DNA of 64,000 nucleotides from a virus (taxonomy: Duplodnaviria; Caudoviricetes), in the IMG/VR virus record IMGVR_UViG_3300018914_000001, positions 1 through 64,000 of that record. One strand, given 5' to 3'. The notes below the pieces were generated by a model. It made no database searches and was not told the DNA's origin. It worked only from the letters and a program-made list of their open reading frames with translations. Below, in pieces: positions 26,148 through 40,694 of this stretch. Every line of letters begins with the position of its first letter. Within the stretch, counting starts at the first letter, position 1. Position numbers and translations under genes: made by a program.

Positions 26148-26154
26148 TTAAAAC

Positions 26155-26231
26155 TGGTGTGGCGAAGGAGATTCGAACTCCCACTGGACAAGGTTTAAGC
26201 TTGTTATCTCTGCCTATTGGATTACCGCCAC
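26155..26231 (-). tRNA. tRNA-Leu (TAA), short variable region
   Basis: ACAAG-CTTAAAC-CTTGT anticodon arm, TTCGAAT loop, ACCA end. Confidence 0.8.
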
Positions 26232-26278
26232 AAAATTAGAAAAAATATTGGGGTGATTCAGGCTCACCCCATACCTTT

Positions 26279-26983: not shown

Positions 26984-27092
26984 TTATCTATCCCCTTATG
27001 ATAGTTTTTGAGGTAGAAGGAGCGTTAAGCTCCCCCACCAGTGTTACCATTGCCAGTATTCTTCTTAGGCGGTCGTGCAAGGTTGACTTTCA

Positions 27093-27770: not shown

Positions 27771-27842
27771 CTTGTTTATCCCCTTTCGGATACTGGAAGT
27801 TTTATTCAGGGGGGCAACTTTTACCCCCCTGATGGATTTTAC

Positions 27843-28937: not shown

Positions 28938-28997
28938 TGTTTAAGTTCCCCCTTGGAGTATGTGAATTTTGGTTATTACTGTAAATTGCGGAGAATT

Positions 28998-29228
28998 TTA
29001 CGCCGTTTGCAACGTGGTCTTTGCGGCTCTTGCATTCGCAAGACCTGCTTTGTTATATTCGAATACTGCAACGCCGTTTTGCCAATTTTGGATTACGCCG
29101 TTTGCATCGACAACTGCGTGTTTCACGCCATAAAGCGTCTTGATGGTTTTGACATACAAGCGTACAGACTGTTTAGCCTTGGAAGCTTCTTGCGCTTCAT
29201 GCTTGACTTGCTTCTTGTTCTTTGCCAT
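28998..29228 (-). CDS. Small basic hypothetical protein
   Basis: ORF with GGAGG RBS. Confidence 0.55.
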   Translation of the reverse strand: MAKNKKQVKHEAQEASKAKQSVRLYVKTIKTLYGVKHAVVDANGVIQNWQNGVAVFEYNKAGLANARAAKTTLQTA

Positions 29229-29266
29229 CTGTTTCATCCTCCAATAATTTCGTGATTTGTAAAAAC

Positions 29267-29319
29267 GAGGCACATTTGTCCACTATAACCATAGCATATG
29301 TAATTGCTGTACGCGCCTC
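29267..29319 (-). ncRNA. ACAGCA-stem RNA #1
   Basis: GAGGCGC-GT-ACAGCAA...GTGCCTC terminal helix. Confidence 0.6.
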
Positions 29320-29323
29320 TAAA

Positions 29324-29397
29324 TGGAGCGAGTAAAGGGAATCGAACCCTTGCCGCCAGAGTGGAAGTCTAGCATTCTACCGTTAAAATATACTCGC
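29324..29397 (-). tRNA. tRNA-Gly (TCC)
   Basis: GCG...CGC-T-CCA, loop CT-TCC-AC. Confidence 0.85.
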
Positions 29398-29459
29398 ATA
29401 TCCTGCTGGGCTATCTGTGCCAAGACACCCAGCAGAAGGAGGTTTGATAAGTTGAAAAA

Positions 29460-29534
29460 TGGTACGCCCTACTGGATTCGAACCAGTGGCTCCCTGATTA
29501 AAAGTCAGGTACTCTACCGCTGAGTTAAGAGCGC
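29460..29534 (-). tRNA. tRNA-Lys (TTT)
   Basis: CCTGA-CTTTTAA-TCAGG, ACCA end. Confidence 0.9.
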
Positions 29535-29609
29535 ATATCTGGCTTTACCTAGCAAAGCAAGCGGTTCTTTGCCGAAGAGAAGCAAGTTTTACTCTTTCTT
29601 TAAAGGTAT

Positions 29610-29736
29610 TGGTGGGGAGAGAAGGATTCGAACCAACAACCCTCAGTGTTCACCTGTTGGATAAATTGCTGTACGTGACTCTTGTTAACAAGTCACATTC
29701 CATTGACTGATGCTCTGCCAATTGAGCTATCTCCCC
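29610..29736 (-). ncRNA. ACAGCA RNA #2: CCA-ended tRNA body with the module inserted in the anticodon loop
   Basis: GGGGAGA/TCTCCCC-ACCA, D arm, TCAGT/ACTGA stem enclosing GTGACT..AGTCAC-GT-ACAGCAA. Confidence 0.65.
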
Positions 29737-29742
29737 AAGAAC

Positions 29743-29816
29743 TGGTCTTCTGGTTGGATTCGAACCAACGACACAGGAGCAACATGCCCCATCATCTACC
29801 GCTGAGTTACAGAAGA
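29743..29816 (-). tRNA. Atypical tRNA-like gene (TGT/Thr-like loop, non-canonical)
   Basis: TCTTCTG/CAGAAGA-CCA and an intact T arm; poor D arm, loop lacks U33. Confidence 0.45.
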
Positions 29817-29825
29817 TATATACAC

Positions 29826-29942
29826 TAGGCGCGATCAAGTTTTTGCAGAAGTAAGGATTCGAACCTCAGACCTCATGATTATCAGTCATGCGCTCTACCA
29901 ACTGAGCTACTTCAGCGACTTTAAAACTGCTGTTCACGCCTA
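29826..29942 (-). ncRNA. ACAGCA RNA #3 enclosing a complete CCA-less tRNA-Ile (GAT) at 29844-29916
   Basis: TAGGCGT-GA-ACAGCA...[tRNA-Ile cloverleaf]...GCGCCTA. Confidence 0.7.
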
Positions 29943-29954
29943 ATTTTAAAATAA

Positions 29955-30079
29955 TGGTGGGCGGTGCGGGAATCGAACCCACTCCTTTTTCTTTGACATG
30001 GAAAATTTGCTTTTTGGTTGGATTGCTGTGAGAGTCTAACTAGACTCTATAAGCTTAATGCGCCATACACCAACCGCCC
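29955..30079 (-). ncRNA. ACAGCA RNA #4: CCA-ended tRNA body with the module replacing the anticodon arm
   Basis: GGGCGGT/ACCGCCC-ACCA, T arm, internal AGAGTCT..AGACTCT-C-ACAGCAA. Confidence 0.65.
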
Positions 30080-30083
30080 ATTA

Positions 30084-30159
30084 TGGCGTACCCTACAGGA
30101 CTCGAACCTGTGACCCACCGCTTAGAAGGCGGTTGCTCTATCCACTGAGCTAAGGATAC
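30084..30159 (-). tRNA. tRNA-Arg (TCT)
   Basis: Canonical cloverleaf, CT-TCT-AA, GCCA end. Confidence 0.9.
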
Positions 30160-30167
30160 ATTATTAC

Positions 30168-30260
30168 AAGGCACTAACTTTTGCTCCCAAGTGAGCATTT
30201 ACCAGTCTGTGGCGGTAAATTTGGATTCGAACCAATAAAATTACTTGCTGTAAGTGCCTT
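30168..30260 (-). ncRNA. ACAGCA RNA #5: YrlA-like circularly permuted tRNA mimic
   Basis: AAGGCACT-T-ACAGCAA, then T arm (TTGG-TTCGAAT-CCAA), looped acceptor-like stem (ATTTACC-GCCACAGACT-GGTAAAT), D-like arm (GCTC-ACTTGG-GAGC), closing AGTGCCTT. Confidence 0.7.
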
Positions 30261-30267
30261 CTCTTGC

Positions 30268-30296
30268 ATTCTAACAATAATCGGAGGATTTGTCAA
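30268..30296 (-). promoter_or_regulatory. SigA-type promoter directly upstream of the YrlA-like RNA
   Basis: TTGACA AATCCTCCGATTATTGT TAGAAT. Confidence 0.8.
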
Positions 30297-30314
30297 CCTT
30301 TTTGTTAGATTTTT

Positions 30315-30437
30315 TGGTAGCCTGTAGAGGAATCGAACCTCTGATACCGCCTCCTGATGGTTAGCGAAAATTGCTGTGAAAGTCTAACTACTAGACTCGT
30401 TTGCTTTTTCGGCGTGTTGCCACTACACTAACAGGCT
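30315..30437 (-). ncRNA. ACAGCA RNA #6: CCA-ended tRNA body with the module in the anticodon arm
   Basis: AGCCTGT/ACAGGCT-ACCA, D and T arms, internal GAGTCTA..TAGACTT-TC-ACAGCAA. Confidence 0.65.
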
Positions 30438-30441
30438 ATAT

Positions 30442-30519
30442 TGGCAGGGGCAATAGGAATCGAACCTACCTCTCGCCGCTTTGGAGGCGGCAACGCCTAG
30501 CCTTGGAACATGTGCCCCT
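30442..30519 (-). tRNA. tRNA-Trp (CCA)
   Basis: AGGGGCA/TGCCCCT-GCCA; GCCGC-CTCCAAA-GCGGC; irregular D arm. Confidence 0.75.
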
Positions 30520-30560
30520 GTATTTGTGAGGGAATTTTCATCCCCTCACTTCTTGATTAT

Positions 30561-30589
30561 ATTCTAGCATTTGCTAGAGATAAAGTCAA
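30561..30589 (-). promoter_or_regulatory. SigA-type promoter for the tRNA/RNA run
   Basis: TTGACT-17-TAGAAT with extended -10 TG. Confidence 0.65.
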
Positions 30590-30610
30590 GAGATTTTTTC
30601 AAAAGTTTTC

Positions 30611-30772
30611 TTAGCCAATCACAATGATCGTCCACGGAAGCGGAGGATCGTTTTGGACAACCCGATTCTCGCTATCAGGAGTGATAGGGATAATCTCTGC
30701 TTGATAAGACAGACCGATCATGGCAGAAAAAATCGCTCCAACAATCAAAGTACTAGCGACAACCTTCTTCAT
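30611..30772 (-). CDS. Small secreted peptide precursor (53 aa)
   Basis: MKKVVASTLIVGAIFSAMIGLSYQAEIIPITPDSENRVVQNDPPLPWTIIVIG; AAGGGGG RBS; TTGACA-17-TAGGCT upstream. Confidence 0.6.
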   Translation of the reverse strand: MKKVVASTLIVGAIFSAMIGLSYQAEIIPITPDSENRVVQNDPPLPWTIIVIG

Positions 30773-30844
30773 TGCTCAGAAGCCCCCTTGTTATCTTTTG
30801 GTAAGACAAGCCTACCAGATTACAGTAGACTTGTCAACACCTTT

Positions 30845-32347
30845 TTAGACAGTGACTTGTGCGTAACGATCAGCATTCAAAACTTCCAGCATCAGATCAT
30901 AAGCAGACAGGTTAGTACCAGCCAGCAGATTGCGGAAGATCGAAGGAGATGCACCAGAAACAAGCTGTACGCCGTTGTCCGTCATCGTAACAGGGAATTG
31001 ATCGTTACGAGCGTTGACATTCCAGAATACCAGTTTAGGCATTTCGTACCCTGCCGCATGATATTCACTGCGGATAGTCTGGAATAACGTTTTGCTTTTG
31101 GATGCTCCGCGATCAGCAGAATCGAACTCCATATCAGAGACGATAAAAATAACCCCGATCATTTCATTCTGCGGAATATTATGCTTTTTCGCGGTGTTCA
31201 AAATCATGTCAAATACAGCCTTTACATTGGTGTTCATCTCCCAATGTGCGCGGTACATGTTGGTGACTTTCTCATGCAGGGTTTTCCCCTGAATCTTAAC
31301 CAGTTGCGGACGATTAGAGAAGGTCATAAAGTGGTCTTTGTAGACAGCACTTTTATTGCGTTCAGCCATGTACATAGCCAGAGAGATAGACACATCAAGC
31401 GGTCTGATAGAGCTATGATAGCTTGTTGCGGTCATAGAACCAGAAACATCAGCTACAACCATGCCGTTGACAGCATTGTCGCCCATGTAGTCAGGCAGAG
31501 CCTTCCACATCTCGTCAACAGTCACATCGTTACGCTGGAATGCTTTCAGAACCAACTCGTAAGGGTATAGAGTCGAAGCATTAATCTTCTTCTCGCCCTT
31601 TTGCAGAGAGTCCAAGAACGCTTGGTAACGTTCAGGAGTGTGACGCTTGAAGGCTTCTCTGTATTGCAAACCAGCTTTAGAAGGCAGTTTATCGAACTGA
31701 ATTTCCTCCCAGCGGTTTTGGGACATCAGAGTTTCGAGCAGATTAATCGCACTACGCTTTTTCGCAAGTGCTTTGCGGTACTGCTCTTCGGACAGCCCAA
31801 GATATTTTGCAGTACGCTTTGCGTATGCAATCTTCTGACGCTTTTCAGGAGTCAGATTACGCTTGTGCTTAACCCCATCTTTCCCTTTTTTTAGGGAAGG
31901 GAAGTTGATAGAATGGAGCCACTTTGCCATCAAGGAAGGCTTGTCCCAATTCTCTTTGATAAGAGTCAGAACGTCTTGCTCCAGTCGAGTGTCGAACAGA
32001 GCGTAGATGTCATCCCAACGTCCATACTCTTCGAACAGGTGGAGATTCTTTTTGAGAACGTCAGCGTAAGGCTGATTCATTCCCATATATCGAACGATCA
32101 CGCGGAACAGTCTGCGTTCACCTTGACCACCACGAATGTCGCGGAAGTAGAAGAGTGCCTTCAGTGCCAGTAGTGCATCTTCAGAGAATGCTTTTGTGAA
32201 AGCTCTGATGATGGATTGCTCGTCACGTTGACGCATTGCACCGCCAGTAGCAAAGAAGTCCAGTACATCACTCTTTGTAGTACGATGAGCGAGAGCGCCA
32301 TTCTCAGTGTGCGCGAAGTTAGTTGCATTTTTCAGGTGTTCCAACAT
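30845..32347 (-). CDS. DUF2828-family protein (helical N-terminus plus C-terminal vWA; Ro60/TROVE-like architecture)
   Basis: TENGA, RDIRGGQGER, YGRWDD, AKW, LYPYE, DVSGSM (MIDAS), SDMEFD, VFWN, SGASP motifs. Confidence 0.85.
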   Translation of the reverse strand: MLEHLKNATNFAHTENGALAHRTTKSDVLDFFATGGAMRQRDEQSIIRAFTKAFSEDALLALKALFYFRDIRGGQGERRLFRVIVRYMGMNQPYADVLKKNLHLFEEYGRWDDIYALFDTRLEQDVLTLIKENWDKPSLMAKWLHSINFPSLKKGKDGVKHKRNLTPEKRQKIAYAKRTAKYLGLSEEQYRKALAKKRSAINLLETLMSQNRWEEIQFDKLPSKAGLQYREAFKRHTPERYQAFLDSLQKGEKKINASTLYPYELVLKAFQRNDVTVDEMWKALPDYMGDNAVNGMVVADVSGSMTATSYHSSIRPLDVSISLAMYMAERNKSAVYKDHFMTFSNRPQLVKIQGKTLHEKVTNMYRAHWEMNTNVKAVFDMILNTAKKHNIPQNEMIGVIFIVSDMEFDSADRGASKSKTLFQTIRSEYHAAGYEMPKLVFWNVNARNDQFPVTMTDNGVQLVSGASPSIFRNLLAGTNLSAYDLMLEVLNADRYAQVTV

Positions 32348-32383
32348 TAAAATCATCTCCTTGTTTTCTAATTGGAATCCTGC

Positions 32384-32455
32384 TAGACGCTTTGCACATT
32401 TGTCGTTGTGCGAAAAGAGATTTTTGGAGACAATGTGTACTGCTGTAAGCGTCTA
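32384..32455 (-). ncRNA. ACAGCA-stem RNA #7 (immediately upstream of DUF2828)
   Basis: TAGACGCTT-ACAGCA...AAGCGTCTA. Confidence 0.65.
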
Positions 32456-32479
32456 ATCAAGATTTATAAAACTTTATAC

Positions 32480-32569
32480 TAGGCACAATTCTTGGGGAAT
32501 TGAACCCCTGAATTTCCTTGGAAGGGAAATTTGCATCCACGCAGTAGTTGTGTTTGCTGTATGTGCCTA
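32480..32569 (-). ncRNA. ACAGCA RNA #8 with D-like arm, Gly(TCC) anticodon arm and T arm
   Basis: TAGGCACA-T-ACAGCAA...AATTTCC-CTTCCAA-GGAAATT, GGGG-TTCAATT-CCCC...TGTGCCTA. Confidence 0.65.
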
Positions 32570-32573
32570 TTTT

Positions 32574-32648
32574 TGGCGAGTATGCAATGGAGTTCAACCA
32601 TTGTGCCTGTGGTTACGCGACCAAGGACAGGCTTAATCTTTCACACTC
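32574..32648 (-). ncRNA. Degenerate tRNA-like RNA lacking a D arm
   Basis: GAGTGTG/CATACTC-GCCA acceptor and CAATGG-TTGAACT-CCATTG T-like arm. Confidence 0.45.
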
Positions 32649-32689
32649 ATAGGACGCGCATGAGAGAGTCGAACTCTCAACAGTGATAT

Positions 32690-32764
32690 TGGTGCGGGAG
32701 ACAGGACTCGAACCTGCATAGGCTAGCTCCCAAGGCTAGTGGTCAACCTTTGACCCACTCCCAC
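32690..32764 (-). tRNA. tRNA-Pro (TGG), atypical acceptor
   Basis: CTAGC-CTTGGGA-GCTAG, TTCGAGT loop, ACCA end. Confidence 0.7.
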
Positions 32765-32996
32765 ATAAAATCTGTGCGGGCTGTTCTTTGGCGACAACCC
32801 GCCTTTACCACATGTATACTTTAGCCAATGGTCATGACTTCCGCTATCGCATACAGTACAATCTAGTGCGTCAGATTGTTTACGGAAAGGTTTTTCAATC
32901 AACTAGTATCGCGGAAACCTTCGAACCTATGCCCTCATCCCCTTTGGCACGTGTGGCTCTCCCCGCAAAACCATGAGAGCTTTCCCATCTCACTAC

Positions 32997-33119
32997 CTAA
33001 CAGTCGCCACCGCCACTGTCACAGCTTCCATTGTCAGAGCCGCCATCATCGCCGCCCCAATCACCTCCACCGCCACCAGTTGGGCGCGGTCTACGCTTTG
33101 TGTTGTTGAATCGTTCCAT
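32997..33119 (-). CDS. Small Gly/Asp-rich peptide (40 aa)
   Basis: MERFNNTKRRPRPTGGGGGDWGGDDGGSDNGSCDSGGGDC; GGAGG RBS. Confidence 0.55.
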   Translation of the reverse strand: MERFNNTKRRPRPTGGGGGDWGGDDGGSDNGSCDSGGGDC

Positions 33120-33154
33120 TGTACAACGCCTCCAAATATTTGTTAGGTATTACT

Positions 33155-33229
33155 TGGCACACCCTGCTGGAGTCGAACCAACGTCTCAGGATTCGTAGTC
33201 CTGCGCTCTATCCATTGAGCTAAGGATGT
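33155..33229 (-). tRNA. tRNA-Arg (ACG)
   Basis: CAGGA-CTACGAA-TCCTG, GCCA end. Confidence 0.9.
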
Positions 33230-33272
33230 ATAAGGTGGAAGCTCAAAGCTACGACTTCCACCAAAGCTTTGA

Positions 33273-33365
33273 TGATGAGGATTGAGAGGACTCGAACCTC
33301 CACGAAGCCGCTAAGCCTCACACCCGCCACATGGATGCGCGTCTGCCAATTTCGCCACATTCCTC
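33273..33365 (-). tRNA. Atypical tRNA: GTG anticodon, 8-nt acceptor strand, long variable arm
   Basis: Leu-like D arm and V arm; CATCC-ATGTGGC-GGGTG; no encoded CCA. Confidence 0.5.
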
Positions 33366-33370
33366 ATAGG

Positions 33371-33449
33371 CTCAGGGGGTTGGATTCGAACCAACGAACA
33401 GCGAGTCGCGACACTCACACTGGCATCTGCCGCTTAATGCTACCCCTGA
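33371..33449 (-). ncRNA. tRNA-like RNA with aberrant extended anticodon arm
   Basis: TCAGGGG/CCCCTGA, D and T arms present; no 7-nt anticodon loop. Confidence 0.45.
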
Positions 33450-33459
33450 ATAGATAATA

Positions 33460-33791
33460 ATTGCTGACTATTCAGCCACGCAGTAACCCATAGGTCAATC
33501 ATACCAAGCACCCATAGACTGTTAATCGTGGATTTAATCGAACTTTCGAAACCTCAGTCCTAAGCTTTGACTCGCCCTATCATTTGGGCATTCAAGAAGA
33601 ATTTTGAGTCTTCAGCTTTAACCACTTGAACTTTGAGATTTGAGCTTTCATCAGCATTTGTAGAATTTCATCAAATATGATGTAACCTCAATATCTTTTT
33701 CCTGAATAAAGGAAACCAAGTAGTTAGATACTATTTTAACGTAAATAGTGGACGAGTATTGAGTTTATGAGTGTTTCGAATAGCCAGCAAT
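33460..33791 (-). ncRNA. 332-nt candidate ncRNA with terminal 14-bp helix and heptamer repeats
   Basis: ATTGCTGGCTATTC/GAATAGTCAGCAAT; TYAAAGY-like units at 33601-33650 and 33543-33570. Confidence 0.55.
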
Positions 33792-33821
33792 CAGTTTATG
33801 TAACCCTGACTAGTAAACTAC

Positions 33822-34445
33822 CTAGTCAGGAATCACAATTTTGGTGATCGTGTTGCTTTCAGACAGAGTAAAATCAACTTCGTTCAAGAACTCAGCGATT
33901 TCCTTCTCCATCTTCTCAATCTTCTCACGAAGATTGTTGACAGAAACGAGCTTCGCTTGGTTCTGCTCCAAGAAGGGCTTGGACGTAGACTCGTATTGCT
34001 CTGTCGAGACTTTGGTGTCCTTGCCGAACGTGGACTTAATCAGTTCGTCAAGACGAATCTGAACTTGCTCATTCTCACGTTCAACTCTTGCAACAGCTTG
34101 GTTATACTCAGTGCGAAGCTTGCTCAGCAAGGTCTGCTCATAGACAATCGAAGACTTGCGCTCGATTGCTTCTGCAACAGACATCTCTTTGCCGCCAATC
34201 GTAACCATCGTTACAGCGTTAGACGCTACGATGGCAGACTTGATAGCCTTACGGCGTTCCATCAAGTCAAGGATAGATTGCAAGTGAGATTCTTGCTTCT
34301 TCACGAACTCATCGTTCGAGGTGTAGCCAGTAACCACTTTCTTGCCAGTGGTCATTACAGCGAACTTTCCGCTGTGAATCGTGCTGTTGATACGCGAGTC
34401 AAGCAATTTCAACTCTGCAAGACCGCGAGTTACAGAAATATCCAT
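33822..34445 (-). CDS. Helical-hairpin coiled-coil protein (resembles DIP1984-like family)
   Basis: S+..+LAELKLL..RI start, IK.AI..SNA.T.V.I, ++SVAEAI, EVD..LS.SN..T.I end. Confidence 0.6.
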   Translation of the reverse strand: MDISVTRGLAELKLLDSRINSTIHSGKFAVMTTGKKVVTGYTSNDEFVKKQESHLQSILDLMERRKAIKSAIVASNAVTMVTIGGKEMSVAEAIERKSSIVYEQTLLSKLRTEYNQAVARVERENEQVQIRLDELIKSTFGKDTKVSTEQYESTSKPFLEQNQAKLVSVNNLREKIEKMEKEIAEFLNEVDFTLSESNTITKIVIPD

Positions 34446-34482
34446 GTGGATGATTCCACCTTTCGTTTGAATTTTGAATATA

Positions 34483-34573
34483 TGGCGGCGGGTGAGGGGA
34501 TCGAACCCCCGCTACAGTTCTCCTGTAGTCACCTGTTTTCAAGACAGGAGCATTACCACTCTGCCAACCCGCC
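34483..34573 (-). tRNA. tRNA-Ser (TGA)
   Basis: CT-TGA-AA loop, long V arm, GCCA end. Confidence 0.9.
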
Positions 34574-34579
34574 ATATTG

Positions 34580-34973
34580 TTGTGAGCCAGCCAGCACGAT
34601 CCGTTACTAGCCAACCCACAACCGAATTGTGTTAGCCCCACCATCTACATCATCACTCGCTCTCGCGAATCTTTGCGTACTGCCACTTGTAGGAGCTACC
34701 TACTTCGCCGTACTGCTATGCCAAAGGGATGATGCCCACGCTAACACTCACGCACTGAGTAGGATTTTATTTGCAGTGTGTGACCTCGCCTGATTAGCCT
34801 TGCGACTCATCCCTACTGACTATCGCAATGTTACACTAACGCATTTTCAGGCTACAACTTGCATGAGATTTCGGACACTCCGACCACTCAATGTTGACGT
34901 GACATAACACAATCATCAAAGTCTCACTGAGAAGACTTGTATCATTAGGCAATTGCCTGTGTGATACTCACAA
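34580..34973 (-). ncRNA. ~394-nt candidate structured ncRNA
   Basis: TTGTGAG/CTCACAA closing helix, many hairpins including GNRA tetraloops, no credible ORF. Confidence 0.5.
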
Positions 34974-34980
34974 AATTTGC

Positions 34981-35035
34981 TAGGCGCATTCATTCCTCTA
35001 TGCACGAAGTTTGGTTTGATTGCTGTTAGCGCCTA
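34981..35035 (-). ncRNA. ACAGCA-stem RNA #9
   Basis: TAGGCGC-TA-ACAGCAA...GCGCCTA. Confidence 0.65.
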
Positions 35036-35043
35036 TGACTGGG

Positions 35044-35343
35044 TTACTTACCCCAAATTCTTGTGATGATTTTATGACCTTTTTCGTCACGTTTGAACCA
35101 GTCAGGTTTGTGCATTAATGGCGGTTTCTGGCGAAAGTTCACCAGAAGATGAACGTCTGCTTTGTCGCCAGTGACTTTGAAGCCCTCAGACTTCAATTTT
35201 GCCACCCAATCAGCGGCATTGTCTTCCGCTTCAGAGCGTGTTGCACCAGCATCTTGCAGAATAACATCTTTTTCAGTCACTTCAATAGTGTCGCCAATCT
35301 TATTACGCTTGGTGACATGTGCAGTTGCGTAAAACTTATTCAT
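35044..35343 (-). CDS. Hypothetical protein
   Basis: ORF with AAGGAG RBS, sandwiched between two ACAGCA RNAs. Confidence 0.6.
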   Translation of the reverse strand: MNKFYATAHVTKRNKIGDTIEVTEKDVILQDAGATRSEAEDNAADWVAKLKSEGFKVTGDKADVHLLVNFRQKPPLMHKPDWFKRDEKGHKIITRIWGK

Positions 35344-35380
35344 ATAATACACTCCTTTAGGGGTGAATTTTCGAGATCAC

Positions 35381-35448
35381 AAGACGCTGTTTGCTTGGGT
35401 GCAAAATTAAAAGTTTTGTCCAATAGTTGTAGTTGCTGTAAGCGTCCT
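35381..35448 (-). ncRNA. ACAGCA-stem RNA #10 carrying a Lys(TTT) anticodon stem-loop
   Basis: AGGACGCT-T-ACAGCAA...CAAAA-CTTTTAA-TTTTG...AGCGTCTT. Confidence 0.65.
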
Positions 35449-35453
35449 TTGCT

Positions 35454-35541
35454 TGGCGGGTAGAACAGGATTCGAACCTGTGGGGCTGTGACACCCACCA
35501 GCTTTCCAAGCTGGCTCTTTAAACCACTCAGACATCTACCC
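35454..35541 (-). tRNA. tRNA-Ser (GGA)
   Basis: TT-GGA-AA loop, long V arm, GCCA end. Confidence 0.88.
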
Positions 35542-35548
35542 ATTTCAA

Positions 35549-35641
35549 TGGCGGATGGAGAGGGATTCGAACCCTCGCGGCAACTCATCGTCACCCTAGC
35601 TGGTTAGCAACCAGCCCTCTTCACCACTTGAGTACCCATCC
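35549..35641 (-). tRNA. tRNA-Ser (GCT)
   Basis: TT-GCT-AA loop, long V arm, GCCA end. Confidence 0.9.
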
Positions 35642-35646
35642 ATCAC

Positions 35647-35702
35647 TAGGCACTATCACATGTTCGATTAAAAGTCGAGTGTGTAATTGCTGTTAGTGCC
35701 TA
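35647..35702 (-). ncRNA. ACAGCA-stem RNA #11 carrying a Lys(TTT) anticodon stem-loop
   Basis: TAGGCACTA-ACAGCAA...TCGA-CTTTTAA-TCGA...TAGTGCCTA. Confidence 0.7.
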
Positions 35703-35709
35703 TATAGTT

Positions 35710-36162
35710 TTAGGTCACATGTGACCATAATTTGTATCTTCGTATTGCTGATATAGTTGAATGATGAACCCCATATTTTAATGCCAAGGAAGTATTCGTA
35801 CTTACCTTATCACTTCTGATTGCTCGAACGTCATCCTCTGTTAGTGTAGATTGAGGATTCTTGTTACCTTTCGTTGAACGATCACGTTCAACCATATCAT
35901 GCATATTTTGAACATGTGTTCCTAGTTCAAGATGTTCAGGATTAATGCACATTGGGTTGTCACATTTATGACGAACTAACATGTTATCAGGTATTTCACC
36001 AAAACATTGTTCGTAAATATGCCTGTGCATATAAGTTTTAATACGTATGCCTTTAATCATCTGTTGATGTAAGATATAGCCATCTTTCTTACGCGAGGCA
36101 TGAGATGTACAGATAAAGCAGTTATTCTCATCAATAACGAACTCTACTGGCTTTCTACTCAT
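35710..36162 (-). mobile_element. Free-standing HNH homing endonuclease
   Basis: HR..Y, VRHKCDNPMCINPEHLELGT..QN..D, C-terminal HTH. Confidence 0.85.
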
Positions 36163-36187
36163 CTCATTCACCTCCTTTGAAAATCTG

Positions 36188-36264
36188 TGGAGGCGCATGG
36201 GGGAATCGAACCCTCCGAATCGTAGATTGAAAGTCTACTGTGTTATCCACTTCACCAATGCGCC
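36188..36264 (-). tRNA. tRNA-Glu (TTC)
   Basis: GTAGA-CTTTCAA-TCTAC, CCA end. Confidence 0.85.
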
Positions 36265-36272
36265 ATACTTCG

Positions 36273-36346
36273 TGGAGACAGGAATGGGATTCGAACCCAC
36301 TAACCTTAGAGTTGCAATCCAAGTCCAGTCCAAACTGGCTCCTGCC
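36273..36346 (-). tRNA. tRNA-Cys (GCA)
   Basis: TT-GCA-AC loop, U73 discriminator, CCA end. Confidence 0.8.
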
Positions 36347-36351
36347 ATGAT

Positions 36352-36411
36352 TGGGGAGAGGATGCGGATTTGCACCGCTCCTAGGATACTAGCTCGAAAG
36401 CCATCCTCTCC
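36352..36411 (-). ncRNA. 60-nt minimal tRNA-like RNA
   Basis: GGAGAGGAT/ATCCTCTCC-CCA, GCGG-TGCAAAT-CCGC T-like arm, tiny internal hairpins. Confidence 0.5.
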
Positions 36412-36418
36412 ATGATAC

Positions 36419-36484
36419 TAGGCGCAATCACTTGGTTCACAGATTGTTAGTCCGTTATATAGCGAGAATTGCTGTTTGCGCCTA
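36419..36484 (-). ncRNA. ACAGCA-stem RNA #12 carrying an AAC anticodon-like stem-loop
   Basis: TAGGCGCAA-ACAGCAA...ACGGA-CTAACAA-TCTGT...TTGCGCCTA. Confidence 0.65.
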
Positions 36485-37149
36485 CAATAATCAGAGGATT
36501 AATCTAAATCATTGCTGATAACGTTTATCTTGTCGTAACCAATTGTAAAGCGTTTAAACCTTAATGTCAACTTCTTTGAGTCTTTCCAATTACCACAAGA
36601 GGTACAATAAGCAACTCTGCCATGTTCTACGTTAGTGAAATTGTCTTCACTTCCGCATTCGCAGACAACTATCAACTTTATCATGGCATTATCGCCCCTT
36701 TCATTACCCGAAGTAGTGACATTTACTATCTTACCACATTGCCGCCAACCTGTCAACATCTTTTTTGTCAGAGTATCGGGCTTGCAATAAGTAAAGGATT
36801 TTGTGAGTCGTTTGAGGAGATGCGCGACTCCTCCTCAAACTCAAAGCTCTCATCTCTGTGCAAAAGCAAAGTGCATTCAATCTCCATCTTATGAAGAGTG
36901 TAGGGGCACTATTCAGAAAGCAAGTGGAGATTGATTTGAAGGATGCCCTTGGCTCATCCTTACATTCACTATGTTATCATACCATTGCGCTAGTGTCAAC
37001 AACAAATTTTGGAGTCTTTTCGCAAAAGTACGGGAATTTTTAAAAAGGTGGCATACCTTTTTGTAGGTATGCCCAATGGAGAGAAGAGGAGATAGATATG
37101 TAGCTCAGTTCCTGCTACTCTTTTATCATACCATCATCTAATAGAGATG

Positions 37150-37566
37150 TCAACTCTCCTCGTTTCCTTTTTTCTCGTTACATCGGGTACACATAGGCTG
37201 GTAGTTTTCAATTACGTCCAGCCCCCCTTTAGAACGTGGAATAATATGGTCTTTGGTCATTAAAACCTCATTTCCATCTTCATCCAACGCATAGAGGTTA
37301 AAGTGATAATTGCGATCATACTCAGAGTGCTTCTCCTTGGCAAAGAAGGCTCCTTTGATACCGCATGTTACGCAATCGCAACCCTTTTCCTTGAAGACAT
37401 ACAAGCGTTGAGATGACATCTTGATCTCGTCACCATCAAAGTTGTAACGAAGCTTCTCGTAGCGAGTTTTACCATCCACAATAGACTTGACATGTCCACG
37501 TGGACGATCAGGGCAAACAATATGAGGCAATACAGCTTCAAGCGGATAGATGCTTTTGCGAATCAT
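37150..37566 (-). CDS. HNH endonuclease
   Basis: CVTCG, TKDHIIPRSKGG...NYQPMCTRCNEKKG. Confidence 0.85.
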   Translation of the reverse strand: MIRKSIYPLEAVLPHIVCPDRPRGHVKSIVDGKTRYEKLRYNFDGDEIKMSSQRLYVFKEKGCDCVTCGIKGAFFAKEKHSEYDRNYHFNLYALDEDGNEVLMTKDHIIPRSKGGLDVIENYQPMCTRCNEKKGNEES

Positions 37567-37667: not shown

Positions 37668-38708
37668 TTATTTTGCACTAGTATCTGCTTCGTGAAGAAA
37701 CATCAGCTTTTGGAACGTTTGCTCTCCTACAAAGTTTTTGAATTTTTCGACTGCTTTTTCTTTCACGTCTTTATATTGCATCAAACGCATATGATATTGA
37801 ACAAGTTCAACAACACGCAATATGGTGTCGATATCATAGCCCCATCTTTGCAGAACAAGAGCCGCAATTTGAGCAGAAACATTCTCATGCCCAATAAAAT
37901 TTGCATAGCGACCATTAAATTCCTTGGTGTAGCCTTTACCTACATCATGGAACAGAGCCGCAAGCATCATCTCTGTTTTGCCCTCAGACATGCCAAAGAC
38001 CTGTTCATAATGCTCATAGGTATAACTCATGGCATGATAGATGTGTCTGGAGACAGAAAAGGCATGGTATTTGCTGTCCTGCGGAAGATTGATACATGGC
38101 TTAAACTCAGGCGCGAGAGTGAGAAGCCAATTAAAGAATTTGTCGTGTTCAATAGCCCCAAATTGAGAAAGAGTAGCATCAACAGCATGACGCCAATCGA
38201 CACGAATTGGGTCTACAAACTTCATAAATTTAATCAAGTCCCACCCCTCAGAATATGTAGGAACTTGCAATCCTTTATACATTTTTCTGATGACTTCTTC
38301 GCCCACAGAACGATCACGAATGCTATCTCTGAAAATACACTTTCCAACAGACGTGTTGAAGTACACAGCGGTAGCCGCAAGGTGATGCTTTGCCATTTCC
38401 TTCAGCAGAGAAGTGCGCCGCTTAGCAGAGGTGTTGGTAGCATCATAAATTACGTTGATGCCTTTCTGAAGGTTTTCTTTAACACGACTATGCAAAAGTT
38501 CAAAGACTTTAGCATGAGATTCGCCTACAGTCTCGCAATTGGGCAGAAGTTGCGTAGCCTCATCTCCTGACAACTCTTTCCGAATATCATCAGAGGAAAG
38601 CCATACAGTATTTTCTTTATTCTCTTGCATGTACCGCTTTGCCCATGTGGTTTTACCAGAAGCAGGAAGACCTACCAAAACGATCAATTCACCTTTATTC
38701 GACATCAT
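37668..38708 (-). CDS. Polynucleotide kinase (P-loop) fused to an HD domain
   Basis: GLPASGKTT, SSDDIR, DATN..R; C-terminal H...HDVGK...HE..SA...HM...AD. Confidence 0.85.
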   Translation of the reverse strand: MMSNKGELIVLVGLPASGKTTWAKRYMQENKENTVWLSSDDIRKELSGDEATQLLPNCETVGESHAKVFELLHSRVKENLQKGINVIYDATNTSAKRRTSLLKEMAKHHLAATAVYFNTSVGKCIFRDSIRDRSVGEEVIRKMYKGLQVPTYSEGWDLIKFMKFVDPIRVDWRHAVDATLSQFGAIEHDKFFNWLLTLAPEFKPCINLPQDSKYHAFSVSRHIYHAMSYTYEHYEQVFGMSEGKTEMMLAALFHDVGKGYTKEFNGRYANFIGHENVSAQIAALVLQRWGYDIDTILRVVELVQYHMRLMQYKDVKEKAVEKFKNFVGEQTFQKLMFLHEADTSAK

Positions 38709-39515
38709 CAATCGCTCCTCCGTCATAATGGTAATCAAGGTAATAATAGTAATCGTAACATCCTCTGCATCCATCAGCAAATTCTCCACGTGAAAATGTT
38801 GCTGAAGTTCCATCTGTAAATTTCAGTGTTACAGATTCTGCTTCGATACCGCCAGCGTCAGTAATTTCATCAAGAGCTACATCTTCAATCGTCTTACCCT
38901 TCATCTTCTGAAGTCTTTGAACTATGTAGTCTATCTGCCTCTGACGTTTTTGTTTCTCTTGCTCTTTTTTAACACGTTCTGCTTCTTGCTGTGCTAAGGC
39001 TCTCTCCCTAGATTTTTTAGCAAGCTCCCTTTCATTGCAAGCACCGCATTTGCCAAACCTCTGACTTTCGAATGTTGACATTGCGCTACCGCAATTACAA
39101 AATGATATGCCATTCAAACTACTAATCACTCTCCTTTCTTACACCTACTTTCTCCCATACAGATTTTCCAAGCTCATAACCAAGCCTAAAATCCTCAATC
39201 TTCAGAACAAGTTGACAGCTTTGTTCGCTATCGCCGTCAAACCCACAAATAACTCCACGCACAAAATCCTGTCCAAATTCCCCCATCGCAACATGAATAA
39301 TATCAACATTGACTCCCTTTCTACGAATATCAAATTTCTTTTCATAGTAGGCTCCAAGGGCACAAGCACAGCCATTTCTCAGAGTTAAACGTTGGCGTGG
39401 AGTCAGTCCAGTCTCCTCGTATGCTTGAACAATTTCTTCAACAGTTGGAAAAGTCACTTTATGCTTGTTCATTTTTCTCCACCCTTTCGTTGTAGGATTA
39501 GCAAGTTCAGCGAGA

Positions 39516-40694
39516 TCAGTTTTTTCTCGTATCAAAGTACCATTTTGCGGCTGTTTTTCGAATTTCAAGTTCAGTTTCTTTGTTGTCATACATGAGGAAT
39601 GCAAGACCACGAACGTATTTGCCATCTTCATTTTGCGTTTGCTCCATGACAAATTTGGCGTAATCCTTTCTCGACTGGCACTCTTCGCTCAGAGAATAAG
39701 TCCAGATATAGCCAGCCGCACATTCAAACTTTGCAGAAACAGAGCAGAGCAAATCTTGAAGCTCCTCAATTTCTGCGCGAAACTCTTCTGGCACAGCAGT
39801 AATAAGATCATTAAGTTTGCCTTCAACCCACGATTGAACTATTCGCTTTTTGGAGAGTCCATAGGCAATTCTATGGACTTTCATGTATTCGTCACCCTTT
39901 ACTTTCAAGCGAAGCACCGCACCGTCATCAAGCACCCAACGAAGTACGAAACCTTCCTCAGAGTAATGAAGTGTTTTGGCTTTAGCTACAATCTCCTCAA
40001 TTGTGCCTTCAACCTTTTTAGTTACTGGCAGGTTGAAAGATGAACCAAGAGCACTGAGGGTGCTGTAGCCAAAGTCAAAACCTGTAAATCTATTTGTTGC
40101 ACCAATTAATACTAAATCGGTAAAATCATATGGTACAACAACCTTTGTTTCAGGGTGAATAATTTCGCACATAAGAGTGAGAGCGATATATGTCCCACTA
40201 CGAAGGAAAAGGCTGTTAGAACGACTGTATTTATCATCCCAAATCTGTTGTGCAATTTGCGATTGAGGAGAGGTGAAACTGCCGCGAGTAGCCCAACGAA
40301 TCTTTCCATCCAGCCTGTACATGATGCCTAGGGAACCATCTTGTTTAATAGTGATTTCAGGCTTTGGCGCAATTTTTACTCCCGCAATATAACCATTGTT
40401 GGTTATCTTAGTGCGCGGAATCATTGCGTCAAAAGCAGGATTTTCGCCATAGTTGAAAAACTTGGGAAAAGGTCTAGCAAGAACTTCACCAGTTTTTTCG
40501 TTAAGAATCAATCCTCTACATTGAATGTTTATGCCGTTCCATTGGCGTGAATAAACAAGTTCAGGTGTATAGTTTAAAAGAATAACATCAGAGTTTTCAG
40601 GATGCCGAATGAGATTGACGTTACCCTTCTCCACTTCTATCATGTACTGTTCTTTGGTTGGTATAGTGCCATTGAGTTTCATTGATACAATCAC
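39516..40694 (-). CDS. T4 Rnl1-like RNA ligase
   Basis: CRGLI, PFPKFFN, KQDGSLG (motif I), EGFV, KVK. Confidence 0.88.
   Translation of the reverse strand: MIVSMKLNGTIPTKEQYMIEVEKGNVNLIRHPENSDVILLNYTPELVYSRQWNGINIQCRGLILNEKTGEVLARPFPKFFNYGENPAFDAMIPRTKITNNGYIAGVKIAPKPEITIKQDGSLGIMYRLDGKIRWATRGSFTSPQSQIAQQIWDDKYSRSNSLFLRSGTYIALTLMCEIIHPETKVVVPYDFTDLVLIGATNRFTGFDFGYSTLSALGSSFNLPVTKKVEGTIEEIVAKAKTLHYSEEGFVLRWVLDDGAVLRLKVKGDEYMKVHRIAYGLSKKRIVQSWVEGKLNDLITAVPEEFRAEIEELQDLLCSVSAKFECAAGYIWTYSLSEECQSRKDYAKFVMEQTQNEDGKYVRGLAFLMYDNKETELEIRKTAAKWYFDTRKN

What the first reader, a model, noticed from the sequence alone, without database searches (positions are those of the whole stretch)
29267..36484. 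Twelve ACAGCA-helix RNAs around a Ro60-like DUF2828 gene: candidate Y-RNA-like tRNA-mimic RNP system
Seen: on the coding strand, 12 intergenic elements (starts 29267, 29610, 29826, 29955, 30168, 30315, 32384, 32480, 34981, 35381, 35647, 36419) share a 6-9-bp helix followed within 0-2 nt by unpaired ACAGCA(A). Helix sequences differ (AGGCGC, AGGCAC, AGACGC, AGUCAC, AGACUC) but pairing is kept, which indicates a structural RNA motif rather than a DNA repeat. Six copies lie on each side of the DUF2828 gene. Established: Ro60 is a helical TROVE ring plus a vWA domain, binds a conserved stem of Y RNAs, and bacterial Ro60 loci lie near Y RNAs, tRNAs and RNA-repair genes. Inference: DUF2828 (helical + MIDAS vWA, function unknown) binds the ACAGCA junction and loads a panel of interchangeable tRNA-like cargo RNAs. 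ACAGCA differs from the known Ro-binding consensus, so this would be a parallel protein-RNA family.
Basis: partly seen in the sequence, partly recalled or inferred. Interest (0 to 1): 0.95.

Follow-up and report, generated by a model that had tools for sequence, protein, structure and literature searches.

The report
Small RNAs partnering Ro-like phage protein
A widespread, apparently undescribed family of small phage RNAs (a short closing helix, an unpaired ACAGCAA, and a variable piece that imitates part of a tRNA) sits next to the gene for a Ro60-like protein of unknown function, much as Y RNAs sit next to Ro60.

Summary
All 12 copies are on the minus (coding) strand, six on each side of the DUF2828 gene. 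Two more lie in the phage's second tRNA array, 70 kb away.

The consensus is W-AGRCNC-NN-ACAGCAA-(G-poor run)...GNGYCU-W-G-U.
- Nine window copies close a 7-bp helix over 30-95 nt. One of these encloses a whole tRNA-Ile.
- Three carry the same module as a local hairpin inside tRNA-like genes.

It is an RNA, not a DNA repeat. The helix co-varies: 86 of 114 own partners pair perfectly, against 4% for swapped partners. G.U outnumbers A.C 43 to 10, against 647 to 645 in the control.

The link to DUF2828 holds in independent samples. In 80 viral and 80 bacterial/archaeal loci chosen by protein alone, a covariance model finds 108 and 86 copies. All are on the gene's strand and 182 of 189 lie upstream. 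Cultured phages A511, VpaE1, Tsamsa and OhShagHennessy have them too.

Reciprocal control: phage Bxz1, with a true TROVE Ro60, has a YrlA hit upstream of its gene and no ACAGCAA element.

Best reading: Y-RNA-like partner RNAs of DUF2828, in a tRNA-repair setting.

The parts
36415..36487 (-). Element 1, closed form. The helix TAGGCGC/GCGCCTA is followed by AA and ACAGCAA (core 36475-36469). The inner hairpin has a 7-nt anticodon-like loop, CTAACAA.
   Evidence: Model R1 gives E 1e-4. Sequence, fold, loop.
35643..35705 (-). Element 2, closed form. The helix is TAGGCAC/GTGCCTA. The inner hairpin TCGA-CTTTTAA-TCGA imitates the anticodon arm of tRNA-Lys(UUU).
   Evidence: R1 gives E 1e-7, but this copy was a seed.
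35377..35451 (-). Element 3, closed form. The helix is GGACGC/GCGTCT. The inner hairpin CAAAA-CTTTTAA-TTTTG is Lys-like.
   Evidence: R1 gives E 1e-4 and this copy was not a seed.
34977..35038 (-). Element 4, closed form. The helix is TAGGCGC/GCGCCTA, with one inner hairpin.
   Evidence: R1 gives E 2e-7, but this copy was a seed. Fold.
32476..32572 (-). Element 5, closed form. The helix is TAGGCAC/GTGCCTA. The inner part holds an anticodon-arm-like hairpin (CTTCCAA, Gly UCC) and a T-arm-like hairpin (GGGG-TTCAATT-CCCC).
   Evidence: R1 gives E 9e-6 and this copy was not a seed.
32380..32458 (-). Element 6, closed form. The helix is TAGACGC/GCGTCTA and the core is ACAGCAG. It lies just upstream of the DUF2828 start codon.
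   Evidence: R1 gives E 0.03. Sequence.
30845..32356 (-). DUF2828 gene, 503-aa open frame. The N-terminal part matches DUF2828. The C-terminal part matches DUF7788, a vWA-type domain with an invariant MIDAS motif (D301-x-S303-x-S305).
   Evidence: Pfam gives PF11443 at 1.6e-34 and PF25043 at 5e-55. PHROG 850 is named 'RNA-binding protein'.
30315..30437 (-). tRNA-like gene with acceptor, D and T arms and an encoded CCA. The hairpin form of the module (GAGTCTA-gtagt-TAGACTT, then TC and ACAGCAA) sits where the anticodon loop should be.
   Evidence: Sequence. ARAGORN finds it only when told to allow an intron.
30164..30263 (-). Element 7, closed form. The helix is AAGGCAC/GTGCCTT and the inner part has a T-arm-like hairpin (TTGG-TTCGAAT-CCAA). 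A sigma-70-like promoter (30296-30268) would put a transcript start at the foot of the helix.
   Evidence: R1 gives E 2e-4 and this copy was not a seed. The promoter-like site matches 11 of 12 positions. Fold.
29955..30079 (-). tRNA-like gene carrying the hairpin form of the module (GAGTCT-agtt-AGACTC, then TC and ACAGCAA).
   Evidence: Rfam tRNA gives 28.2 bits over 29958-30079. R1 gives a partial hit at 29981-30035, E 0.29.
29826..29943 (-). Closed form whose helix (AGGCGT/GCGCCT) and ACAGCAG enclose the complete tRNA-Ile(GAU) gene at 29844-29916.
   Evidence: Sequence, helix partner 94 nt downstream, tRNA. R1 did not find it at E<=1.
29610..29736 (-). tRNA-like gene carrying the hairpin form of the module (GTGACTT...AGAGTCAC, then GT and ACAGCAA) between the strands of its anticodon stem.
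   Evidence: Rfam tRNA gives 49.3 bits over 29613-29736.
29263..29322 (-). Element 8, closed form. The helix is GAGGCGC/GTGCCTC, with G.U pairs.
   Evidence: R1 gives E 3e-7, but this copy was a seed.
37668..38813 (-). Context gene: a polynucleotide-kinase-like P-loop kinase fused to an HD phosphohydrolase.
   Evidence: Pfam gives AAA_33 at 2e-24 and HD at 2e-8. PHROG 505 is named polynucleotide kinase.
39927..40523 (-). Context gene: a T4 Rnl1-type RNA ligase. The coordinates are the matched part of a 404-aa open frame.
   Evidence: PF09511 gives 6.4e-17.

Best explanation
The 12 elements are genes, or co-transcribed and processed units, for small structured RNAs of about 55-125 nt.

Each carries a constant module:
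- a 7-bp helix with a conserved outer A-U/G-C end;
- two free nucleotides;
- a single-stranded ACAGCAA followed by a G-poor run;
- on the other strand, an invariant G just outside the helix.

The module is joined to a variable part that imitates a piece of a tRNA: an anticodon arm, D arm or T arm, two arms, a whole tRNA, or a tRNA-like body with the module in place of its anticodon loop.

Inferred: the constant module is the binding site for the neighbouring DUF2828 protein (a helical N-terminal domain plus a vWA/MIDAS domain). Together they would form a ribonucleoprotein analogous to Ro60 with Y RNA (YrlA).

More weakly inferred: the variable tRNA-like parts engage tRNA-handling factors during infection, as part of the phage's tRNA supply and repair region (PNK-like kinase-HD and Rnl1-type ligase next door).

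Shown here: RNA-level structure, family-wide conservation, and strand-specific linkage to the gene.
Not shown here: transcription, binding, function.
For: 1. Motif specificity. Fourteen full motifs occur in the 158.5-kb genome, all in the two tRNA arrays and all co-oriented with them. Model R1 gives 8 hits in the window (3 of them seeds) and 1 in the other 94.5 kb, and nothing else at full length.

2. RNA-level helix.
- Of 114 distinct instances defined only by the 5' motif, 86 have a perfect 6-nt Watson-Crick partner 8-150 nt downstream, and 93 do if upstream hairpins are counted. With partners swapped between instances the figure is 4% on average and 9.8% at most. Twenty-two helix sequences are used.
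- Among helices with a single mismatch, G.U outnumbers A.C by 43 to 10, against 647 to 645 in the swapped control.
- The outer pair, which seed selection did not force, is A-U 27, U-A 17, G-C 2 and unpaired 5 of 51.

3. Linkage to DUF2828 in loci chosen by protein alone.
- Viral contigs: 116 simple motifs on the gene strand against 0 on the other, in 80 loci of 703 kb. R1 gives 108 hits in the 84 loci searched (80 viral plus 4 named phage loci), all on the gene strand. In the 80 viral loci, 47 carry the 103 hits that fall there, and 96 of the 103 are upstream, 49 within 500 nt, 0 inside the gene.
- Bacterial and archaeal assemblies: 86 hits in 53 of 80 loci, all on the gene strand and all upstream.
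- Eleven viral loci have elements but no tRNA within 4 kb, so the elements follow the gene and not only tRNA arrays.

4. The converse. Of 10 motif-selected viral records in which the fetched stretch showed no DUF2828, 8 have the gene elsewhere. The 2 without it are 7% and 50% complete.

5. Cultured phages carry the elements beside the gene: A511, VpaE1, Tsamsa and OhShagHennessy.

6. tRNA mimicry. Thirty-eight of 109 elements have a hairpin with a stem of at least 4 bp and a 7-nt Y-U-NNN-R-N loop, against 6% of shuffled inner sequences. Three window copies sit in tRNA-like genes.

7. Reciprocal control. Bxz1's true TROVE/vWA_Ro60 gene has an Rfam YrlA match directly upstream and no R1 hit in 50 kb. 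The window has no YrlA or Y_RNA hit at E<=1.

8. Protein.
- The MIDAS motif is invariant.
- vWA_Ro60 matches weakly, E 0.017.
- hhalign matches the MIDAS region at probability 53%.
- With its own families left out, all 30 nearest named ESM-Atlas clusters are TROVE/Ro60, scores 0.91-0.93.
- Others name it 'RNA-binding protein' or 'Ro-like RNA binding protein'.

9. Context. A PNK-like kinase-HD and an Rnl1-type ligase lie within 8 kb. In A511 the neighbours include RtcB, an RNA ligase and an HD hydrolase.
Against: - No transcript, RNA end or binding datum was seen.
- The N-terminal domain shows no detectable sequence similarity to TROVE: Pfam gave no match, hhalign found nothing in local or global mode, and an HMM gave E>3.
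- Neither the protein nor its profile matched any PDB sequence. Ro-likeness therefore rests on the vWA part, on language-model neighbours and on other people's labels.
- 33 of 80 viral and 27 of 80 bacterial/archaeal DUF2828 loci have no R1 hit within the fetched flanks.
- Many copies end 15-30 nt before the start codon. That also fits a cis-acting leader.
- Only about a third of elements have a clean anticodon-arm-like hairpin.
- R1 and its alignments were seeded with sequences picked for pairing, so searches are not independent tests. Searches are.
Confidence: 0.68

Rival explanations
1. The elements are cis-acting leader or attenuator structures of the DUF2828 mRNA. The protein, or something else, binds them to control its own translation or mRNA stability. 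They are not free small RNAs.
For: Copies cluster directly upstream of the gene on the same strand: 49 of 103 lie within 500 nt, and all 86 in the bacterial/archaeal loci are upstream, many ending 15-30 nt before the start codon. Autoregulatory leaders are common for RNA-binding proteins (general knowledge).
Against: - One to seven copies occur in tandem.
- Six window copies lie downstream of the gene, and two lie 70 kb away in another tRNA array.
- Some are nested in tRNA-like genes with an encoded CCA, or enclose a whole tRNA.
- One has its own promoter-like site at the foot of the helix.
- The variable tRNA-like parts serve no purpose in a leader.
- The two readings are not exclusive for the copy nearest the gene.
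Confidence: 0.13
2. The module is a processing or punctuation signal of the long tRNA-array transcripts. A host or phage ribonuclease recognises it, and the linkage to DUF2828 merely reflects a shared position in tRNA arrays.
For: All 14 copies in this genome lie in tRNA arrays. DUF2828 genes are themselves embedded in co-oriented tRNA arrays: 55 of 80 loci have tRNAs, and 347 of 351 tRNAs are on the gene strand.
Against: - Eleven loci have elements next to DUF2828 with no tRNA within 4 kb, and OhShagHennessy has two with no tRNA nearby.
- Nineteen loci have tRNAs but no element.
- Bxz1's 50-kb stretch holds tRNAs but no element.
- A cleavage signal would not need a co-varying 7-bp helix that encloses a variable tRNA-like insert.
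Confidence: 0.1
3. The hairpin-form copies are small introns or mobile insertions in tRNA genes, and the closed forms are their free or degenerate relatives. DUF2828, or the adjacent kinase and ligase, would help excision and rejoining.
For: - Three window copies interrupt tRNA-like genes at or near the anticodon loop.
- In locus L009 removing the insert would leave a normal Lys anticodon arm.
- The hairpin form is a circular permutation of the closed form.
- HNH genes, a kinase-HD and an Rnl1-type ligase lie in or next to the array.
Against: - In the window's three cases no canonical 7-nt loop with U33 is restored. ARAGORN's intron placements are forced and inconsistent, and one uses the GCA of ACAGCAA itself as the anticodon.
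- Most copies are free-standing: 98 have a downstream partner against 12 with an upstream hairpin, of 114.
- No flanking target duplications or intron-type catalytic cores were seen. There are no Rfam intron or ribozyme hits at E<=1.
Confidence: 0.05
4. It is a DNA-level repeat, such as a promoter, a recombination site or a miniature transposon with terminal inverted repeats.
For: The motif is a contiguous 15-16 nt word, and the closed form has inverted ends.
Against: - There is complete strand bias relative to the gene: 116 to 0, 108 to 0 and 86 to 0.
- G.U is tolerated but A.C is not, 43 against 10, with an even control.
- The helix sequence co-varies while its position is kept.
- The inserts differ completely between copies.
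Confidence: 0.02

Closest known systems
Ro60 (Rsr, TROVE + vWA) with bacterial and phage Y RNAs (YrlA, Rfam RF02553)
   Same: - The protein has a helical N-terminal part and a C-terminal vWA domain with a MIDAS motif.
- Small RNA genes lie directly beside the protein gene on the same strand (compared with Bxz1).
- The RNA has a stem made from its 5' and 3' ends, joined to a tRNA-like part. PMC4201824 (passages read) describes YrlA as encoded next to Ro60 and containing a tRNA-like domain.
- RNA-repair genes lie nearby.
   Different: - The protein does not match Pfam TROVE or a TROVE profile outside the MIDAS region.
- The RNA does not match Rfam YrlA or Y_RNA.
- Its constant part is a plain 7-bp helix plus single-stranded ACAGCAA and an invariant 3' G. 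It is not the stem-bulge-stem with a 'CGAA motif' by which PMC12135203 (passages read) picked out its two phage Y-like RNAs.
- Many copies per genome (14 here) carry different tRNA-part mimics.
- The tRNA-like body can be outermost, with the module closed by a loop, whereas in most copies the helix is formed by the element's own two ends.
Thermus phage phiLo Ro60 with Yrl1 and Yrl2 (PMC12135203; abstract and passages read)
   Same: A phage-encoded Ro-type protein with two small RNA genes just upstream of its gene.
   Different: That protein is reported there as a Ro60 homolog with a solved doughnut-shaped structure of HEAT repeats plus a vWA domain, and its RNAs carry the CGAA motif. Here both the protein family (DUF2828/DUF7788) and the RNA motif differ.
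Intron-containing or permuted tRNA genes
   Same: Three copies interrupt tRNA-like genes near the anticodon loop. The two topologies of the module are circular permutations of each other.
   Different: No canonical anticodon loop is restored, and no group I core or ribozyme was found in Rfam. A bulge-helix-bulge motif was not looked for. Most copies are free-standing.

Membership tests
Ro60 / TROVE protein family (Pfam PF05731 + PF25045) | N-terminal TROVE domain (HEAT-repeat ring) recognisable by sequence | tested here: not met
   - PF05731 matched none of 16 members at E<=10 and found nothing in the genome.
- hhalign of a 53-sequence DUF2828 profile against an 18-sequence TROVE profile aligned only 30-37 columns around the MIDAS motif.
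- An HMM of the N-terminal 285 residues against 120 TROVE proteins gave E>3.
- The TROVE alignment was shallow (at least 55% identity) and no secondary structure was used, so distant homology is not excluded.
Ro60 / TROVE protein family (Pfam PF05731 + PF25045) | C-terminal vWA domain with a MIDAS motif (DxSxS...T...D) | tested here: met
   PF25043 (DUF7788) matches at 5e-55. D301, S303, S305, T374 and D406 are invariant in 53 sequences. VWA_2 matches 12 of 16 members, and vWA_Ro60 matches at E 0.017. hhalign against TROVE proteins matches the MIDAS region at probability 53%.
Ro60 / TROVE protein family (Pfam PF05731 + PF25045) | Closed ring fold with a central cavity | not testable with these tools
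The only lead is that the Atlas's 30 nearest named clusters outside DUF2828 are all TROVE/Ro60, scores 0.91-0.93. The structural neighbours listed there were only other DUF2828 clusters.
Y RNA / YrlA (Rfam RF00019, RF02553) | Match to the curated covariance models | tested here: not met
   There was no Y_RNA or YrlA hit at E<=1 in window 25500-37500. As a positive control, YrlA hits Bxz1 upstream of its Ro gene at E 3e-5.
Y RNA / YrlA (Rfam RF00019, RF02553) | A stem formed by the 5' and 3' ends that carries the protein-binding site, here expected as stem-bulge-stem with the CGAA motif (PMC12135203, passages read) | tested here: inconclusive
   A terminal 7-bp stem is present and co-varies. 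It has no conserved bulge or CGAA. The conserved letters are the A-U/G-C outer pairs, ACAGCAA and a 3' G. Binding was not tested.
Y RNA / YrlA (Rfam RF00019, RF02553) | Encoded next to the partner protein gene, and containing a tRNA-like domain | tested here: met
   Adjacency and shared strand are shown. tRNA-arm-like hairpins occur in 38 of 109 elements against 6% of shuffles, and three window copies sit in tRNA-like bodies.
tRNA genes with introns | Removing the insert restores a canonical anticodon stem and a 7-nt loop with U33 | tested here: not met
   ARAGORN's forced solutions for the three window genes give loops without U33 and inconsistent insert positions. Locus L009 is a possible exception.

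The most novel reading that the evidence does not exclude
DUF2828 with its ACAGCAA RNAs is a second, independent Ro/Y-type ribonucleoprotein system that phages use as a counter-defence. The protein would hold a panel of RNAs, each displaying a different tRNA part, with anticodon arms of Lys(UUU) and Asn(GUU) (5 each), Thr(GGU) (4) and Ser(UGA) (3) the most frequent, plus D arms and T arms. These would act as decoys or tethers for host nucleases and other factors that attack or handle tRNAs, or would bring cleaved tRNAs to the adjacent kinase and ligase. This would explain why the gene sits inside phage tRNA arrays from Actinobacteria to Proteobacteria.
Probability: 0.3. Interest if true: 0.9.

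Novelty: new variant of a known kind. Interest (0 to 1): 0.8.

Why it matters
DUF2828 proteins occur in 702 of 50,697 deposited phage records. These include Felix O1-type phages, the Listeria phage A511 group, mycobacteriophages and large Vibrio, Aeromonas and Campylobacter phages. They also occur in many bacterial assemblies. They are labelled only 'RNA-binding protein' or 'hypothetical'.

A conserved RNA partner with a simple, mutable recognition module gives this family a testable function. It would extend the Ro60/Y RNA principle, a ring-type protein plus tRNA-mimicking RNAs, to a second protein-RNA pair. It also offers a rationale for the many unannotated gaps in phage tRNA arrays.

If the variable parts are decoys for tRNA-targeting defences, this would be a new class of RNA-based counter-defence.

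Tried and rejected
- Rfam: no known family covers the elements at E<=1. The only hits were tRNAs and low-scoring chance matches.
- Close relatives of the genome: none in the phage collection. Only short tRNA matches were found.
- Protein against PDB sequences: nothing useful, with either the single sequence or the profile.
- Protein against TROVE by profile methods: only the MIDAS region matched. This is not taken as evidence against a shared fold.
- Structure prediction: switched off, so no fold comparison was made.
- Sequencing runs: no RNA holder was listed. Four DNA runs of one study hold the stretch, and three of them may be the source.
- Literature:
  - 'DUF2828' gave 5 papers, none on phage RNA.
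  - 'Ro-like RNA binding protein' gave 6 papers, all genome announcements or unrelated.
  - ACAGCAA + phage + tRNA gave 255 papers. The 15 listed appear to be primer or unrelated matches, judged from titles and abstract openings only.
  - Ro60 + phage-encoded + tRNA-like + anti-defense gave 2 papers, neither describing this.
  - I found no description of the motif in these searches. Supplements, for example the phage table of PMC4201824, were closed and could bear on this.
- Promoter reading: the scan found 12 promoter-like sites against 13.0 in shuffles, so promoters are not enriched. Only the site at 30296-30268 is cited, as a hint.
- First helix screen: at least 6 pairs including G.U within 160 nt was too permissive. 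It passed 41 of 72 cores on the wrong strand and was replaced by the swapped-partner test.
- One motif copy in the second array (core 104870) was not recovered by R1 at E<=1 with default filters. It rests on the pattern and visible pairing only.
- Complex prediction was not used, because it does not take RNA partners.

Full report
WHAT IS THERE

The window is the first 64 kb of a 158.5-kb virus record with direct terminal repeats. About 40% of it is G+C. Between 26 and 41 kb the genes run on the minus strand.

Fifteen tRNA genes lie there. On the minus strand each shows the word AG-R-Y-N-Y, two free bases, then ACAGCA(A/G). The hexamer alone is only mildly over-represented, 64 against 41.7 +/- 6.9. 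The full word, however, occurs 14 times in the genome and only in the two tRNA arrays. Twelve copies flank the DUF2828 gene, and two lie at 104870 and 104952 on the plus strand in the second array, again co-oriented with the tRNAs.

TWO TOPOLOGIES OF ONE MODULE

In nine window copies the bases before ACAGCAA pair with a stretch 30-95 nt downstream. The element is therefore closed by a 7-bp helix (TAGGCGC...GCGCCTAG and variants). One of these helices encloses the complete tRNA-Ile gene.

In the other three copies the partner strand lies immediately upstream and forms a local hairpin. The whole module then sits inside a tRNA-like gene that has acceptor, D and T arms and an encoded CCA. It lies where the anticodon loop should be.

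The hairpin form is the closed form with its 3' and 5' ends joined. The conserved ...CU-W-G-U end runs into the W-AG... start.

IT IS AN RNA STRUCTURE

I took instances defined only by the 5' word, in loci chosen only by the protein. Of 114, 86 have a perfect 6-nt Watson-Crick partner 8-150 nt downstream. With partners swapped between instances the figure is 4% on average and 9.8% at most. Twenty-two different helix sequences are used.

Among helices with exactly one mismatch, G.U outnumbers A.C by 43 to 10, where a swapped control gives 647 to 645. That asymmetry is expected only if the transcribed strand folds.

In a 51-sequence seed alignment five of seven pairs show double changes. The seeds were picked for pairing, so only the outermost pair counts as independent there: A-U 27, U-A 17, G-C 2, unpaired 5.

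Conserved letters outside the helix are ACAGCAA, a run of about seven positions almost free of G, and a G directly 3' of the helix that is invariant in 101 distinct sequences.

In minimum-energy folds 93 of 95 elements form the closing helix. ACAGCAA is fully unpaired in 45 of them, and on average 5.3 of its 7 bases are unpaired. Sixty-nine have exactly one inner hairpin. These elements were found with the model, so this describes them and does not test them.

LINKAGE TO DUF2828

A pattern scan of IMG/VR first showed the word clustered and co-oriented in many viral contigs. Twenty-three of those stretches also encoded a DUF2828 homologue, often immediately beside the elements.

I then reversed the test and chose loci by protein alone.
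- In 80 viral loci the simple word occurs 116 times on the gene's strand and never on the other.
- Covariance model R1 gives 108 hits at E<=0.01 in the 84 loci searched (80 viral plus 4 named phage loci), all on the gene's strand. In the 80 viral loci, 47 carry the 103 hits that fall there. Of these, 96 are upstream, 49 within 500 nt, and none inside the gene.
- In 80 loci from bacterial and archaeal assemblies, R1 gives 86 hits in 53 loci, all on the gene's strand and all upstream.

Of ten motif-bearing records whose fetched stretch lacked the gene, eight have it elsewhere. The two exceptions are 7% and 50% complete.

DUF2828 genes are themselves embedded in co-oriented tRNA arrays: 55 of 80 loci have tRNAs, and 347 of 351 tRNAs are on the gene strand. 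Even so, 11 loci have elements without any tRNA nearby. The elements therefore follow the gene.

Cultured phages show the same arrangement: Listeria phage A511, E. coli phage VpaE1 (Felix O1 type), Bacillus phage Tsamsa and mycobacteriophage OhShagHennessy.

THE VARIABLE PART

Thirty-eight of 109 elements contain a hairpin with a stem of at least 4 bp and a 7-nt Y-U-NNN-R-N loop, against 6% of shuffled inner sequences. The 'anticodons' are diverse: GUU and UUU five times each, GGU four, UGA three, and others.

Others carry D-loop-like words (12 of 109) or T-loop-like words (13 of 109). The window's own copies include two Lys(UUU)-like arms, one Gly(UCC)-like arm with a T arm, and one T arm.

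THE PROTEIN

The 503-aa product matches DUF2828 and DUF7788. It has an invariant MIDAS motif. PHROGs calls it 'RNA-binding protein', and SEA-PHAGES records call relatives 'Ro-like RNA binding protein'.

I could not confirm a Ro60-like ring.
- Pfam TROVE does not match.
- Profile and HMM comparisons with TROVE proteins, fetched via Bxz1 gp220, align only the MIDAS region.

The positive leads are a weak vWA_Ro60 match and the ESM Atlas. Once DUF2828 clusters are excluded, all 30 nearest named clusters there are TROVE/Ro60. Five large records that carry DUF2828 have no TROVE gene.

RECIPROCAL CONTROL

Bxz1 encodes a true TROVE + vWA_Ro60 protein. Rfam's YrlA model hits directly upstream of that gene, and R1 finds nothing in 50 kb. 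In the window it is the other way round. Two different protein families thus each have their own small-RNA family in the same position.

CONTEXT

A PNK-like kinase-HD (37668-38813) and a T4 Rnl1-type ligase (39927-40523) lie next to the array. There is an Rnl2-type ligase elsewhere in the genome and no RtcB. A511 has RtcB, an RNA ligase and an HD hydrolase beside its DUF2828 gene.

A review of jumbo phages notes that ROT/TROVE proteins with a tRNA-like partner form a platform for RNA repair (PMC7824862, passage read). PMC4201824 (passages read) describes YrlA RNAs next to Ro60 in more than 250 bacteria and phages. PMC12135203 (abstract and passages read) describes a Thermus phage Ro60 with two upstream Y-like RNAs that carry a CGAA motif.

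INTERPRETATION

The best-supported reading is a family of small RNAs that partner the DUF2828 protein, analogous to Y RNAs with Ro60. The helix/ACAGCAA/G module would be the constant protein-binding part. The tRNA-like part would be the variable, functional end.

RNA structure and genomic linkage are shown. Transcription, binding and function are inferred.

The rivals explain less of the data. They are a cis-acting leader, a processing signal, small introns, and a DNA repeat. The leader reading may still hold for the copy nearest the start codon.

I found no description of the motif in Rfam 15 or in four literature searches. Supplementary files could not be read.

VERDICT

It is a new variant of the Ro/Y RNA kind, widespread and directly testable in model phages.

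Noticed in passing
window 34574-34976 (-) and 33366-33821 (-): Two non-coding stretches of 400-450 nt lie inside the tRNA/element array. They fold far better than shuffles (z -4.4 and -5.3, with 0 of 100 shuffles as stable). Neither has an Rfam match at E<=1. They may be large structured RNAs.
   Followed up: partly
window 37668-38813 (-), 39927-40523 (-); genome 152854-153336 (-): A tRNA-repair gene set lies next to the array: a PNK-like kinase fused to an HD phosphohydrolase, and a T4 Rnl1-type ligase. A second, Rnl2-type ligase lies elsewhere in the genome. There is no RtcB.
   Followed up: partly
window 35710-36198 (-) and 37150-37566 (-): Two HNH endonuclease genes (HNH_3 and HNH/HNH_5) are interspersed with the tRNAs and elements, as is usual for homing endonucleases in phage tRNA regions.
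   Followed up: no
window 32640-32700 (-), about 33385 (-), 32997-33119 (-): There are lone T-arm-like hairpins (GAGAG-TTCGACT-CTCTC, AATGG-TTGAACT-CCATT, GTTGG-TTCGAAT-CCAAC) without the rest of a tRNA. There is also a 40-codon Gly/Asp-rich open frame.
   Followed up: no
genome 103826-103900 (+), outside the window: ARAGORN reports a tRNA with a four-base anticodon (atgg) in the second tRNA array.
   Followed up: no
L064 1340-1400 (+), L064 1040-1065 (+): Variant modules exist. One copy has GCAGCAA in place of ACAGCAA, behind a consensus sigma-70-type promoter. One hairpin-form copy has the helix GTATC/GATAC inside a long-arm tRNA-like gene. The family is therefore broader than the AGRCNC helix used to find it.
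   Followed up: no
L241 and L269 (complete bacterial chromosomes): DUF2828 homologues occur in complete chromosomes of Oscillibacter valericigenes and Selenomonas sputigena, with no R1 hit within 3 kb at E<=0.01. I did not check whether these lie in prophages or use a divergent RNA.
   Followed up: no
window 27093-27770 (-): A TerD-domain protein gene (Pfam 8.5e-56) lies just downstream of the array.
   Followed up: no
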